This document shows positions 50,730 to 54,771 of a stretch of DNA of 64,000 bases, piece after piece. The DNA is taken from the sequence record OP795442. One strand, given 5' to 3'. The translations under genes and the position numbers were made by a program. The notes under the pieces are model-generated. The model was not told where the DNA came from, searched no databases, and was given only the letters and a program-made list of their open reading frames with translations. This DNA comes from Escherichia phage A7_1. Each line of letters begins with the position of its first letter. The first letter of the stretch is position 1.

Positions 50730-50961
50730 TGATCTCCTCGTTCATCTTAATATGCATGTCACGCAAGAAAGGTTTCAGCCCATCACGAATAATTGCTAAT
50801 CTGTCACCTTTGCACAAATTAACCAGATAAGGGTGATCCATAGCCTCCCAGGCAGGTTGATTGGTATAAGTGCCCCAGCCTTGATTCATCATCTGGTTAA
50901 GGTGCTCGATTTGTTTTATCTTAAGCTGCAAAGCTTCAATAGTAATCTGTTTAATATCCAT
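50680..50961 (-). CDS. hypothetical protein (93 aa)
   Basis: Track ORF; start uncertain. Confidence 0.4.
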   Translation of the reverse strand: MDIKQITIEALQLKIKQIEHLNQMMNQGWGTYTNQPAWEAMDHPYLVNLCKGDRLAIIRDGLKPFLRDMHIKMNEEIIDSLYYQIRKLENENN

Positions 50962-51425
50962 CAGTAAAGATCCTCGCTGTATAATTCTTTCTCACTTCCA
51001 CCACGTTCAATACGAACTTGTCCGGCATGGGTTGCAATGATCATTGCTTCTTCACGATTCCAATAATTACCGTATTGGTCGATAAACCCTTGATCATCCC
51101 CACAAACTTGCTGGGATACTAATTGCGGCCCCACCACATCAAGCACTTCTGCCATATCCTTAGAGTAATGACGAGAGCCAGGAATAATCAGAGTTCCACC
51201 ATCCTTTAATTTAAAACGATTAGCTGCACATACTATAGTACGCTGAACCTTTTGGTCATTATTCCAATAGCAAGTTTGCCAACAGATCTCAGGAATCTCG
51301 TCCATCATATCATCGAAAGAGTAATCAGCATTCCCATAGGACTGTAGTTTTTCAAACAAACTCTCTGGAGTTTCACGAGACAAAGCTTTATCTAATAATT
51401 CCAGACGTTCTTTAAAAGTTTTCAA
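50961..51425 (-). CDS. hypothetical protein (154 aa)
   Basis: Track ORF. Confidence 0.45.
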
Positions 51426-51429
51426 TTGA

Positions 51430-51618
51430 TCACTCCTTTGCAGTAGAATCTTGCTTGGTCATTTCACGAAGAATAAGTGCTCCAATATTTTCAAGAAGTG
51501 TTACGAGAGTGTCAACTTCAGGTAACTCAATACTCTTAGATTCTTTACTCATCCCATCGCGAACTGACGAAATTTGCATAAACACGGCGATCATTTCTTT
51601 TGTAAGCTTAATATTCAT
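51430..51618 (-). CDS. hypothetical protein (62 aa)
   Basis: Track ORF. Confidence 0.4.
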
Positions 51619-51693: not shown

Positions 51694-51915
51694 TCAATTT
51701 CTCTTGATGTGTTTACTAGGACAGGCTCCCGCACCGTCTTTATATACCACAGCAGACGATCGACCGTTGCTATAAACGCAGACAGTTTGGCTACCGTCGC
51801 GGTATGAATCTTCTAAGTCTAACGTCTGACTGGCGTGAGCCTCGGGGAAGTTCAGTACACTCGTAATTAGGCAACCGAGTGCAAAACCCATAACCAGTGC
51901 TCTATTTTTGCTCAT
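51694..51915 (-). CDS. small secreted or lipoprotein-like protein (73 aa)
   Basis: N-terminal hydrophobic signal with ALGC lipobox-like site; four Cys. Confidence 0.45.
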   Translation of the reverse strand: MSKNRALVMGFALGCLITSVLNFPEAHASQTLDLEDSYRDGSQTVCVYSNGRSSAVVYKDGAGACPSKHIKRN

Positions 51916-51986
51916 CGTTTCATATCCTCTTCGTTGGTTGATATAAGGATTATACAGGATTTGTGGTGGGTGTCAACAGGCAGATA

Positions 51987-52012
51987 AAGAAAAACCGCCC
52001 CTAAGGGCGGCT
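51987..52012 (-). terminator. intrinsic terminator
   Basis: CCGCCCCTAAGGGCGG then T-run on minus strand. Confidence 0.55.
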
Positions 52013-52021
52013 TAAAAATTT

Positions 52022-52264
52022 TTACCAATTCGCATAACCATCTTGTTCATCAGTATCACGATCTACGATTCGTGGCTTTGGAGTAAGATCCATATGAGCA
52101 AGAGGTGTACCTTCTGGAATATCATTCAGTGAATATTCAACATTAACCAGTTGACCTGTGAGTTCATCCATCTTTTGGGAGATATACGCTGCAACTGATC
52201 GGCCTTCCAGAGTAGCCAGGTATTTCAGTTTTTCGTAAGTCGCGTCATTAAAATTAATATTCAT
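52022..52264 (-). CDS. hypothetical protein (80 aa)
   Basis: Track ORF. Confidence 0.45.
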   Translation of the reverse strand: MNINFNDATYEKLKYLATLEGRSVAAYISQKMDELTGQLVNVEYSLNDIPEGTPLAHMDLTPKPRIVDRDTDEQDGYANW

Positions 52265-53330: not shown

Positions 53331-53515
53331 AATTCCCCCTATCGTACAAACATTTTACCCTGGTCACAATAACCGTTTTTAATTCCTCGTGGAGCAGACA
53401 AACATTTTACTGCAATCTCTCCACACTTGCAAGGAGCATTTTCACGTTCTGCAATCTTTCGGTTCTGATCGAAAACTTCACCACATTTTTCACATTTGTA
53501 AGAATACAACGGCAT
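53309..53515 (-). CDS. zinc-ribbon small protein (68 aa), absent from ORF track
   Basis: Read codon by codon: MPLYSYKCEKCGEVF...CKCGE; overlaps next gene start by 22 nt. Confidence 0.4.
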
Positions 53516-54256: not shown

Positions 54257-54309
54257 TTTAATCTCCTTTCGTTTAACTTGGGGCCATTATACATGACCCC
54301 TTATCATTG

Positions 54310-54771
54310 TCAACAGTCTTTATAAGTTTCTAGTGCAACTTTACGTGCTTCATCCTTTTCAATCTCAAACTTAGATCGCTTGTCCTTTCTTGAAGCCTTG
54401 TTACGGCGTTTAATGATCCGACGGCAAGCATGATAAAGGCGTGTACCTTCGTAATCATTCATCCAGAACAGATCGCCATTTACAAAAAGGCTGTCGGAGA
54501 AAATACCACAAACCTTTTCAATGTAAGTAACCTTGCCTGTGACCGTATCAACAATTGTATAATCAACATACCAAAGATCATCATTGTCTTCACAAGGGTC
54601 TTCATGACCTTCAGGAACAAAAACTCCAGAATGTATCTCAAACCGAGGAGATCCTTTACGAATCAACTTCAAGATCTTACCTGCTGGCTTACGAGTCATC
54701 AGCACAGGAGCGCCCAAAATTAAAGAAAGGTAAAGCGCAATCCCCACAACAGCGATAATTAAAGCTTCCAC
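54310..54771 (-). CDS. hypothetical membrane-anchored protein (153 aa)
   Basis: N-terminal TM helix. Confidence 0.5.
   Translation of the reverse strand: MEALIIAVVGIALYLSLILGAPVLMTRKPAGKILKLIRKGSPRFEIHSGVFVPEGHEDPCEDNDDLWYVDYTIVDTVTGKVTYIEKVCGIFSDSLFVNGDLFWMNDYEGTRLYHACRRIIKRRNKASRKDKRSKFEIEKDEARKVALETYKDC

What the first reader, a model, noticed from the sequence alone, without database searches (positions are those of the whole stretch)
51694..51915. Small exported Cys-containing protein (possible lipoprotein) in the early block
The 73-aa protein has an N-terminal hydrophobic signal with an ALGC lipobox-like site and four cysteines. Early-expressed phage lipoproteins are classic superinfection-exclusion factors that block the phage's own receptor.
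Basis: partly seen in the sequence, partly recalled or inferred. Interest (0 to 1): 0.4.

Follow-up and report, generated by a model that had tools for sequence, protein, structure and literature searches.

The report
Small secreted phage protein, not lipoprotein
This is a real early phage gene for a tiny protein that is exported to the space between the two bacterial membranes; it is not a lipoprotein, but relatives sit among anti-phage genes in other mobile elements, so it is a candidate blocker of further phage infection.

Summary
The 73-aa ORF (51694-51915, minus strand) is a real, conserved gene. It matches phrog_4641 (unknown function), belongs to a family of at least 69 members, and is under purifying selection. 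It has three cysteines, not four.

The "ALGC lipobox" fails both lipobox patterns. Its Cys15 lies in the middle of the hydrophobic core, and only 5 of 69 relatives have Cys there. The phiTE and PBES02 proteins differ only by Cys/Val at that position. What is conserved is a signal peptidase I-type signal (a -3/-1 site in 69/69; AHA|SQ here), followed by a roughly 45-aa mature domain with two invariant cysteines. That domain is modelled with confidence (pLDDT 90) as four beta strands. It has no informative fold, Pfam or PDB match.

The gene follows a terminator and a perfect sigma-70 promoter, so it is probably expressed early.

Relatives occur in three settings:
- virulent Vequintavirinae phages;
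- 13-kb satellite-like elements, beside true lipoproteins and a T4 Imm-family gene;
- Yersinia and Serratia integrase islands that carry variable defence cargo.

Best reading: a soluble periplasmic superinfection-exclusion or entry-block factor. It would work on the same logic as T4 Spackle but is unrelated to it. The function is inferred, not shown. The lipoprotein receptor-blocker reading is rejected.

The parts
51694..51915 (-). Complete coding sequence (73 codons plus TGA stop) of the secreted mini-protein precursor
   Evidence: ORF list and translation; phrog_4641 E=1.8e-23; 100% identical but unannotated in Escherichia phage A5-4, and annotated as hypothetical protein A73_182 in phage A73; purifying selection.
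51832..51915 (-). Predicted Sec signal peptide, residues 1-28: n-region MSKNR, h-region ALVMGFALGCLITSVL, c-region NFPEAHA, cleavage AHA|SQ
   Evidence: Hydropathy profile. A (-3,-1) small-residue site is found at the aligned position in 69/69 family members although the h-regions have diverged. A 26-aa sig_peptide is annotated on the Cronobacter phage PBES 02 homologue. Cleavage is predicted, not shown.
51871..51873 (-). It lies inside the hydrophobic core and is not conserved.
   Evidence: The aligned column holds V17, L14, I12, A11 and C5 of 69. phiTE has C and PBES02 has V in otherwise identical proteins. No lipobox pattern matches.
51697..51831 (-). Mature 45-aa domain (S29-N73), four beta strands. 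Invariant C46 (51778-51780) and C65 (51721-51723) probably form a disulfide.
   Evidence: The alignments show invariant T31, C46, Y48 and C65. AlphaFold2 on the mature-domain alignment gives mean pLDDT 90.3, with strands at 2-12, 15-21, 26-32 and 40-43. The disulfide is inferred from the invariance and the predicted periplasmic location.
51925..51930 (-). Shine-Dalgarno sequence AGAGGA, 9 nt before the ATG
   Evidence: Read from the minus-strand sequence.
51949..51976 (-). Perfect sigma-70 consensus promoter, TTGACA-16 nt-TATAAT
   Evidence: 12 of 12 matches. It is one of only two perfect sites in 64 kb, against 0.14 expected by chance. Relatives at about 30% identity also carry TTGACA-17-TATTGT or TATACT 56-60 nt upstream.
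51983..52013 (-). Intrinsic terminator ending the upstream unit: 9-bp stem AAGCCGCCC/GGGCGGTTT plus a T tract
   Evidence: Terminator scan. The 89-bp terminator-promoter stretch 51922-52010 is 82% identical to phage phiTE, where a terminator is annotated.

Best explanation
The gene encodes a 73-aa precursor. The Sec pathway probably exports it and signal peptidase I probably cleaves it after Ala28 (AHA|SQ). That would release a soluble 45-aa, four-stranded beta mini-protein into the periplasm, probably held together by one disulfide (C46-C65).

The host RNA polymerase probably transcribes it at the very start of infection, from a perfect sigma-70 promoter, as the first gene of an early unit.

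The most likely role is superinfection exclusion, or more broadly a block to phage entry acting in the periplasm. This is the logic of T4 Spackle or P1 Sim. The protein would bind either a periplasm-exposed part of an incoming phage's injection apparatus (tail-tip lysozyme or hub, tape-measure or ejection proteins) or a host envelope factor needed for DNA entry. Adsorbed phages then could not deliver their DNA.

Shown by tool results: the gene is real and conserved, it has signal-peptide features, it has no lipobox, it has invariant cysteines, the promoter is there, and the genomic contexts are as described. Inferred: cleavage, disulfide formation, early timing, and the whole exclusion function with its target. 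I put about 0.85 on the 'secreted periplasmic, non-lipoprotein' part and about 0.45 on the exclusion or anti-phage function.
For: Signal peptide: positive n-region, 16-residue hydrophobic core and AHA|SQ. A (-3,-1) site is found at the aligned position in 69/69 relatives, giving mature lengths of 43-51 aa. A sig_peptide is annotated on the PBES 02 homologue.

Two cysteines are invariant in 69/69. The mature-domain model is confident (pLDDT 90.3).

Early expression: a 12/12 sigma-70 promoter directly after a terminator. Similar promoters lie upstream of distant relatives.

Context 1: in recurrent 13-kb circularly permuted elements the homologue (phrog_4641, E=7e-11) lies 60 bp downstream of a PF14373 Imm_superinfect gene (45 bits; phrog_1039 'immunity to superinfection'). 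It also follows one or two canonical lipoproteins (LSGC lipobox). All of these sit just after the integrase.

Context 2: in Yersinia and Serratia chromosomes the homologue abuts a 538-550-aa integrase, in a conserved module with one or two other small signal-peptide proteins. The island carries swappable defence cargo: AbiTii, an MmeI-like restriction-modification gene, a C5-methylase restriction-modification system, HATPase_c_3+Ymh, and SMC/AAA_13.

A gene shared by virulent phages (as an early gene), satellites and defence islands is the distribution expected of an exclusion gene. As a precedent, T4 Spackle is an early, signal-peptide-bearing, disulfide-bonded periplasmic protein that acts together with Imm (PMC7677548).

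Against: The Imm adjacency occurs in one lineage of 13-kb elements only. The sister lineage has an unrelated 138-aa membrane protein in that position. No Imm-like gene was found in this window.

Guilt by association in islands is weak evidence. The conserved secreted-protein module could serve the island or the host in another way.

No dedicated signal-peptide predictor was available, so an uncleaved signal anchor is not excluded. Several database records call homologues 'putative membrane protein'.
Confidence: 0.45

Rival explanations
1. One reading: an early lipoprotein, processed by signal peptidase II at ALG|C15 and lipid-anchored, that blocks the phage's own outer-membrane receptor as T5 Llp or T1/phi80 Cor do.
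For: A Cys preceded by Gly lies at position 15 after a positively charged N-terminus. A few close relatives (A73, phiTE, P0002, P0036) share it. Llp is likewise small and has an internal disulfide (PMC9586334).
Against: Neither lipobox pattern matches. The Cys sits in the middle of a 16-residue hydrophobic run and is followed by LITSVL. Only 5 of 69 relatives have Cys in that column, and none of the 69 has a classic lipobox. phiTE and PBES02 differ only by C/V there. A conserved AxA site lies 13 residues further on in every member. There is no sequence match to Llp or any other PDB chain. The gene is not adjacent to a receptor-binding protein gene, whereas llp is adjacent to and downstream of the pb5 gene. 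True lipoproteins with an LSGC lipobox in the related 13-kb elements are separate genes.
Confidence: 0.03
2. A regulator of lysis timing: a periplasmic antiholin like T4 RI, or an inhibitor of the phage's own secreted cell-wall hydrolase. It would hold back lysis until late in infection or when superinfection is sensed.
For: T4 RI is also a small periplasmic protein with a cleavable signal peptide (title of PMC8385771, cited). Certreviruses are reported to encode a cell-wall hydrolase with a signal peptide (PMC9769974), which could need a periplasmic brake.
Against: The gene sits in the early replication block, far from any lysis cassette. Homologues occur in chromosomal integrase islands, where the Pfam calls show no holin or endolysin. 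There is no sequence or fold similarity to RI.
Confidence: 0.1
3. A periplasmic modulator of the host envelope that is not aimed at other phages. Examples: an inhibitor of a host periplasmic enzyme or envelope stress pathway that helps the infection, or a fitness or virulence factor when carried by islands (such as protection from external lysozymes or antimicrobials).
For: The protein is predicted to be periplasmic and has a stable disulfide-bonded fold. In Yersinia and Serratia it belongs to the conserved, not the variable, part of the island, alongside other small secreted proteins of unknown function. A weak domain match occurs at the C-terminus of a 506-aa MORN plus peptidoglycan-binding protein.
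Against: No similarity to the known lysozyme inhibitors or other envelope factors represented in the libraries searched. Linkage with Imm and with defence cargo points towards phage-phage conflict instead.
Confidence: 0.2
4. An uncleaved signal anchor: a single-pass inner-membrane protein with its 45-aa C-terminal domain in the periplasm, as the 'putative membrane protein' labels suggest. The function could still be exclusion.
For: The hydrophobic core is fairly long (16 residues here, longer in some relatives, and an extended N-terminus in the 87-88-aa satellite forms). Database annotations of homologues say 'putative membrane protein'.
Against: A small-residue (-3,-1) motif is kept at a fixed distance from the mature domain in 69/69 members, even though the rest of the signal has diverged completely. 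That is hard to explain unless the site is cleaved. One annotation team called a signal peptide.
Confidence: 0.15

Closest known systems
T4 Spackle (Sp, gp61.3), the periplasmic superinfection-exclusion protein that inhibits the gp5 tail lysozyme
   Same: An early gene of a virulent myovirus. A small precursor with a cleaved export signal, periplasmic, with one disulfide. It works alongside Imm in T4 (PMC7677548). Here a family member lies beside an Imm-family gene in 13-kb elements.
   Different: No sequence similarity. Mature size is 45 aa against 75 aa. The predicted fold is all-beta, against an alpha-helical bundle. Neither the target nor any exclusion phenotype has been tested here.
T5 Llp and T1/phi80 Cor superinfection-exclusion lipoproteins
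   Same: Small phage-encoded envelope proteins with an internal disulfide, acting on the periplasmic side (PMC9586334).
   Different: Those are lipid-anchored at Cys1, and llp sits next to the receptor-binding protein gene. This protein has no lipobox, its candidate Cys is not conserved, it is not near a receptor-binding protein gene, and it shows no sequence similarity.
T4 Imm family (Pfam PF14373, Imm_superinfect)
   Same: A small early envelope protein of phages. It is the genomic neighbour of a family member in satellite-like elements.
   Different: The Imm-family neighbour seen here is a predicted two-helix membrane protein. This protein is predicted to be a cleaved soluble periplasmic domain and does not match PF14373.
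phrog_4641 (PHROGs family, unknown function)
   Same: Direct member: E=1.8e-23 over residues 7-71, covering profile positions 4-67 of 68.
   Different: The family carries no functional annotation. Nothing beyond membership can be taken from it.
T4 RI antiholin
   Same: A small phage protein with a cleavable signal peptide and a periplasmic domain (title of PMC8385771, seen).
   Different: No homology. This gene is not near lysis genes and also occurs in non-lytic integrative islands.

Membership tests
Bacterial lipoproteins (signal peptidase II substrates) | A lipobox [LVI][ASTVI][GAS]-C (or PROSITE PS51257) at the end of the hydrophobic region | tested here: not met
   FALG-C15 matches neither pattern (patterns written from memory). 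The Cys lies mid-way through the 16-residue hydrophobic core and is followed by LITSVL.
Bacterial lipoproteins (signal peptidase II substrates) | The +1 cysteine is conserved across homologues | tested here: not met
   Cys occupies that column in 5 of 69 members, and none of the 69 has a classic lipobox. phiTE (C) and PBES02 (V) are otherwise identical.
Bacterial lipoproteins (signal peptidase II substrates) | Lipid modification and globomycin-sensitive processing | not testable with these tools
   Needs palmitate labelling or a globomycin assay.
Sec / signal peptidase I secretory precursors | Positively charged n-region, hydrophobic h-region, and small neutral residues at -3 and -1 | tested here: met
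   K3 and R5; core ALVMGFALGCLITSVL; A26-H27-A28|S29. A (-3,-1) site at the aligned position in 69/69 members, and at least one K or R in the n-region in 68/69. This is a rule-based check. No trained predictor was available.
Sec / signal peptidase I secretory precursors | Actual cleavage and periplasmic location | not testable with these tools
   Needs fractionation or N-terminal mass spectrometry. Only an annotated sig_peptide on the PBES 02 homologue is available.
T5 Llp / Cor exclusion lipoproteins | Sequence relationship to Llp or Cor | tested here: not met
   No Pfam hit. The profile search of all PDB chain sequences, which should include the FhuA-Llp entry 8A60 (cited in PMC9586334), gave only five chance hits at E around 1.
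T5 Llp / Cor exclusion lipoproteins | Gene adjacent to the receptor-binding protein gene | tested here: not met
   The neighbours are small early-region ORFs, with DNA ligase upstream. llp is described as adjacent and downstream to the pb5 gene.
T5 Llp / Cor exclusion lipoproteins | Binds and inactivates the phage's outer-membrane receptor | not testable with these tools
   Needs adsorption and binding assays.
T4 Spackle | Sequence or fold relationship (alpha-helical bundle) | tested here: not met
T4 Spackle | An early-expressed, exported, disulfide-bonded periplasmic protein | tested here: inconclusive
   The promoter, the signal peptide and the invariant Cys pair all fit. Timing, export and disulfide formation are inferred.
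T4 Spackle | Inhibits the tail-tip lysozyme of superinfecting phage | not testable with these tools
   Needs a binding or lysozyme assay, or complex modelling, which was not available.
phrog_4641 | A significant full-length match to the family HMM | tested here: met
   E=1.8e-23, 83.2 bits, residues 7-71 against profile positions 4-67 of 68. The satellite homologue P0032 also matches, at E=7e-11.
T4 Imm (PF14373) | A match to the Imm_superinfect model | tested here: not met
   No Pfam hit for this protein. Only the neighbouring gene in the 13-kb elements matches. No Imm-like ORF is present in the window.

The most novel reading that the evidence does not exclude
This is the founding member, in this window, of an uncharacterised family of about 45-aa disulfide-bonded periplasmic mini-proteins that block phage entry by a mechanism unrelated to Spackle, Imm, Llp/Cor or Sim. 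Three kinds of rival elements would share it: virulent Vequintavirinae phages (as an early gene), 13-kb satellite-like elements (next to Imm and lipoproteins), and the conserved core of a Yersinia/Serratia defence island. That would make it a compact envelope-level anti-phage module that has moved between phages, their parasites and their hosts.
Probability: 0.35. Interest if true: 0.6.

Novelty: new variant of a known kind. Interest (0 to 1): 0.4.

Why it matters
Few periplasmic exclusion factors are understood mechanistically; T4 Spackle and T5 Llp are the examples checked here (PMC7677548, PMC9586334). A 45-aa, confidently modelled, easily synthesised protein would be a tractable handle on how rV5-like myoviruses cross the periplasm. 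The family is found in at least 101 phage records spanning Klebsiella, Cronobacter, Salmonella, Escherichia, Pectobacterium, Enterobacter and Erwinia phages, and it is also carried by satellites and defence islands. It could also explain exclusion between therapeutic phages used in cocktails. At a practical level, the gene is missing from the annotation of the closest published genome (A5-4) and is labelled 'membrane protein' elsewhere. Both should be corrected.

Tried and rejected
- **Lipobox.** Neither pattern matches and the Cys is not conserved. The lipoprotein reading is rejected.
- **Family libraries.** Pfam, NCBIfam and PADLOC gave nothing for this protein or for diverse homologues.
- **PDB sequence search** with the mature-domain profile gave only chance hits at E around 1.
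- **Exhaustive HMM search** of 1.8 billion representatives returned only 22 hits. P0017 (2015 aa, 25 stretches) is a tandem-repeat translation that matches only the 'GSCPSPH' stretch and was discarded. P0034 (506 aa, MORN plus peptidoglycan-binding domains with two C-terminal copies) is a weak match (E=1.8e-4) and is kept only as a hint.
- **Imm-like gene in the window.** None found. There are no paralogues of the family in the window either.
- **Companion genes from the islands and satellites.** The lipoproteins and the 80/81-aa and 137-aa secreted proteins gave no significant hit in the window. The 112-aa lipoprotein and the 80-aa and 137-aa proteins gave no hit in the phage collection. The satellite Imm hit only a mycobacteriophage membrane protein.
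- **Host of the 13-kb element.** No match in the E. coli genomes, the plasmids, the GTDB genome contigs or IMG/VR.
- **Literature.** Three searches on exclusion, transcriptomes and Vequintavirinae found nothing on this family. One paper's 'superinfection exclusion gp17' concerns an unrelated tail-completion gene.

Full report
**What the window is.** The region around the finding is 98.9% identical over 901 bp to Escherichia phage A5-4, and 96.4% identical to phages A73 and W70. These are 137-145-kb virulent myoviruses, and the A5-4 record is classified in Vequintavirinae. All ORFs of at least 150 aa near the finding run on the minus strand. In A5-4 the neighbourhood holds DNA ligase, a homing endonuclease and many small hypothetical genes. 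This is the early/replication arm.

**The observation.**
- The ORF at 51694-51915 (minus strand) exists as described: ATG start, 73 aa.
- It has three cysteines (C15, C46, C65), not four.
- It is certainly a gene. It matches phrog_4641 at E=1.8e-23 over nearly its full length.
- tblastn finds it in 101 phage records, infecting Klebsiella, Cronobacter, Salmonella, Escherichia, Pectobacterium, Enterobacter, Erwinia and other hosts.
- Against six homologues, synonymous sites are saturated (pS 0.70-0.90) while non-synonymous differences stay at 0.23-0.47.
- The identical ORF is not annotated in A5-4 (H9 'none'; the gap is visible). In A73 it is 'hypothetical protein A73_182'.

**Lipoprotein or ordinary secreted protein?**
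- The proposed lipobox is F-A-L-G-C15. It matches neither the classic [LVI][ASTVI][GAS]C pattern nor a PROSITE PS51257-like pattern (both written from memory).
- The Cys lies in the middle of an uninterrupted 16-residue hydrophobic run (ALVMGFALGCLITSVL) rather than at its end.
- Conservation settles the question. In an alignment of 69 family members, the Cys15 column holds V17, L14, I12, A11 and C in only 5. No member has a classic lipobox.
- The phiTE and PBES 02 proteins are identical apart from Cys/Val at this position.
- By contrast, all 69 members have a small-residue (-3,-1) site two to three residues before the invariant Thr31 (AHA|SQ here; ANA|SQ, AQA|SQ, AFA|TV, VFA|GE and others elsewhere). 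This holds even though the rest of the signal has diverged beyond recognition.
- 68 of 69 members have at least one Lys or Arg in the n-region, and the predicted mature lengths cluster at 43-47 aa.
- The annotators of Cronobacter phage PBES 02 placed a 26-aa sig_peptide on the homologue.
- I conclude that this is a Sec/signal peptidase I precursor. Cleavage itself is predicted, not demonstrated, and no trained predictor was available.

**The mature domain.**
- The alignment shows T-L-x-L-x-[DE]-x-Y ... C-[VI]-Y ... C-P, with T31, C46, Y48 and C65 invariant.
- AlphaFold2 on a 52-row alignment of mature domains gives mean pLDDT 90.3 and four beta strands. The full-length model gave 75.9, with the signal as a helix.
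- Two invariant cysteines in an exported protein point to a structural disulfide. This is an inference; I could not measure the model's geometry.
- In BFVD the only good matches are other uncharacterised phage proteins. They include more distant ones from Aeromonas and Pseudoalteromonas phages.
- An exhaustive HMM search of 1.8 billion representatives found only 22 proteins. One, P0017, is a repeat artefact. Another, P0034, is a 506-aa MORN plus peptidoglycan-binding protein with two weak C-terminal copies of the domain.

**Expression signals.**
- Reading the minus strand, the upstream gene ends at 52022.
- A 9-bp GC-rich hairpin with a T tract follows (52013-51992).
- Next comes a perfect TTGACA-16-TATAAT promoter (51976-51949), then AGAGGA, then the ATG nine nucleotides later.
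- Only two perfect promoters occur in the 64-kb window, against 0.14 expected by chance. The other lies at 54313-54286.
- The 89-bp terminator-promoter stretch is the only part of the 901-bp query that still matches Pectobacterium phage phiTE, at 82% identity. A terminator is annotated there.
- Relatives at about 30% protein identity carry TTGACA-17-TATTGT or TATACT 56-60 nt upstream of their own copies. In PBES 02 the best promoter-like site (10 of 12 matches) lies 562 nt upstream, ahead of the preceding gene, so the homologue there would be the second gene of the unit.
- No terminator separates the ORF from the next gene at 51618, so it probably heads an early operon. In a virulent phage, sigma-70 consensus promoters imply transcription by unmodified host polymerase, which means early expression. 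This rests on general knowledge; I found no transcriptome for this group.

**Where else the family lives.** This is the main evidence bearing on function. It occurs in three settings.

1. *Virulent Vequintavirinae and relatives.* The gene always lies in the ligase-to-exonuclease early region. It is often next to a phrog_839 154-aa protein, though the order varies.

2. *Two related 13.0- and 13.6-kb elements recovered from many metagenomes.*
   - These are 100% identical contigs of the same length with different start points, so the molecule is circular or terminally redundant.
   - They encode an integrase, a capsid-like protein and a phiTE-type adaptor (the 13.0-kb type also ParA), so they look like satellites or mini-phages.
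   - Directly after the integrase in the 13.0-kb type come two paralogous true lipoproteins (MKK...LSGC|VTRE, a canonical lipobox).
   - Then comes a 71-aa two-helix protein matching PF14373 Imm_superinfect (45 bits against a cut-off of 27.9; also phrog_1039 'immunity to superinfection').
   - The family member P0032 follows 60 bp later.
   - The 13.6-kb type has a homologous lipoprotein, a 138-aa membrane protein and the family member P0035.

3. *Chromosomes of Yersinia enterocolitica and Serratia.*
   - A 65-aa family member abuts a 538-550-aa tyrosine integrase at the edge of an island inserted beside rsmI and lpoA.
   - It is preceded by other small signal-peptide proteins: an 80/81-aa one in most loci, plus a 137-aa one in Yersinia (one locus has a single 142-aa gene instead).
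   - Beyond a resolvase, the island's cargo differs from strain to strain: AbiTii, an MmeI-like restriction-modification enzyme, a C5-methylase restriction-modification system, HATPase_c_3+Ymh, or an SMC/AAA_13 ATPase.

**Interpretation.**
- The same small periplasmic protein serves as an early gene in lytic phages, sits beside Imm and lipoproteins in satellites, and forms the integrase-proximal core of a defence island. This is what one expects of a factor that protects an occupied cell from further phage attack.
- The best-studied analogue is T4 Spackle. It is an early, exported, disulfide-bonded periplasmic protein that inhibits the gp5 tail lysozyme and acts together with Imm (PMC7677548). 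P1 Sim is another exported exclusion protein (my own knowledge, not checked here).
- I therefore propose that the mature 45-aa protein acts in the periplasm after adsorption. It would bind either a component of the incoming injection machinery or a host factor needed for DNA passage. This is an inference from context alone.
- The Imm linkage is a single evolutionary event. The window has no Imm-like gene. Island core genes need not be defensive.
- I give the exclusion function about 0.45, and the 'secreted, non-lipoprotein' call about 0.85.

**Comparison with known families.**
- The protein is a member of phrog_4641 (tested, met).
- It is not a lipoprotein: both the lipobox and the conservation tests fail.
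- It is not an Llp/Cor relative. There is no sequence match, no lipid-anchor signal, and it is not next to a receptor-binding protein gene. Llp's features are taken from PMC9586334.
- It is not a Spackle, Imm or RI homologue.
- It may work like Spackle in outline, but it has an unrelated all-beta fold and is a little over half Spackle's size.

**Verdict.**
- The cysteine count and the lipoprotein call are wrong.
- The exclusion idea survives in a different form and gains circumstantial support.
- The family is uncharacterised and cheap to test. It would be of moderate interest if the exclusion role is confirmed.

Noticed in passing
L006-L009 (13,029-13,079-bp contigs) and L010-L011 (13,575-bp contigs): Recurrent circularly permuted elements of about 13 kb from many metagenomes. 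They carry an integrase, a capsid-like gene (Phage_cap_E) and a phiTE-type adaptor (the 13.0-kb type also ParA), plus an integrase-proximal cluster of canonical lipoproteins, a T4 Imm-family gene and a homologue of the finding. They look like satellites or mini-phages linked to phiTE-like myoviruses. No match was found in the E. coli genomes, plasmids, GTDB contigs or IMG/VR, so the host is unknown.
   Followed up: partly
L016-L024 (Serratia CP012096.1 2,931,295-2,947,492; Yersinia enterocolitica CP009456.1 4,123,295-4,139,492, and others): An integrative island beside rsmI and lpoA. Its conserved core holds a 538-550-aa integrase, the 65-aa family member and one or two other small secreted proteins (the Yersinia loci also have YagK/YfjJ). 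Beyond a resolvase lies a slot holding different defence genes in different strains: AbiTii, an MmeI-like restriction-modification enzyme, a C5-methylase restriction-modification system, HATPase_c_3+Ymh, or an SMC/AAA_13 ATPase.
   Followed up: partly
window 51694-51915 compared with OP744025.1 133405-133623: The identical ORF is not annotated in the closest published genome, Escherichia phage A5-4. A 400-bp gap is left between A54_189 and A54_190. Homologues elsewhere are labelled 'putative membrane protein'.
   Followed up: yes
window 50961-51425 (-): The 154-aa phrog_839 protein two genes downstream is labelled 'anti-restriction nuclease' in A5-4. Its first 30 residues match the PADLOC model PD-T4-9_B (E=1.3e-9). 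It stays linked to the secreted-protein gene in divergent phages (phiTE_180, L012, L013), although the order varies.
   Followed up: no
window 51922-52010 and 54286-54313 (-): The window's only two perfect TTGACA-N16-TATAAT promoters are here. The first, together with its preceding terminator, forms an 89-bp non-coding stretch that is 82% identical to Pectobacterium phage phiTE, while the flanking coding DNA no longer matches at that search sensitivity.
   Followed up: partly
P0034 (506-aa metagenomic protein), residues about 430-506: A MORN-repeat plus peptidoglycan-binding (PG_binding_1) protein ends in two tandem copies of a shortened version of the domain (GLRLKDSYRSGGNTMCRY...GICP). This may be a cellular relative of the fold. 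The match is weak (E=1.8e-4).
   Followed up: no
window 53339-53515 (-): A 58-aa CxxC...CxC zinc-ribbon protein. The similarly sized, similarly placed gene in phage PBES 02 is annotated as FmdB-like. It lies in the same early block, three genes after the other perfect promoter.
   Followed up: no
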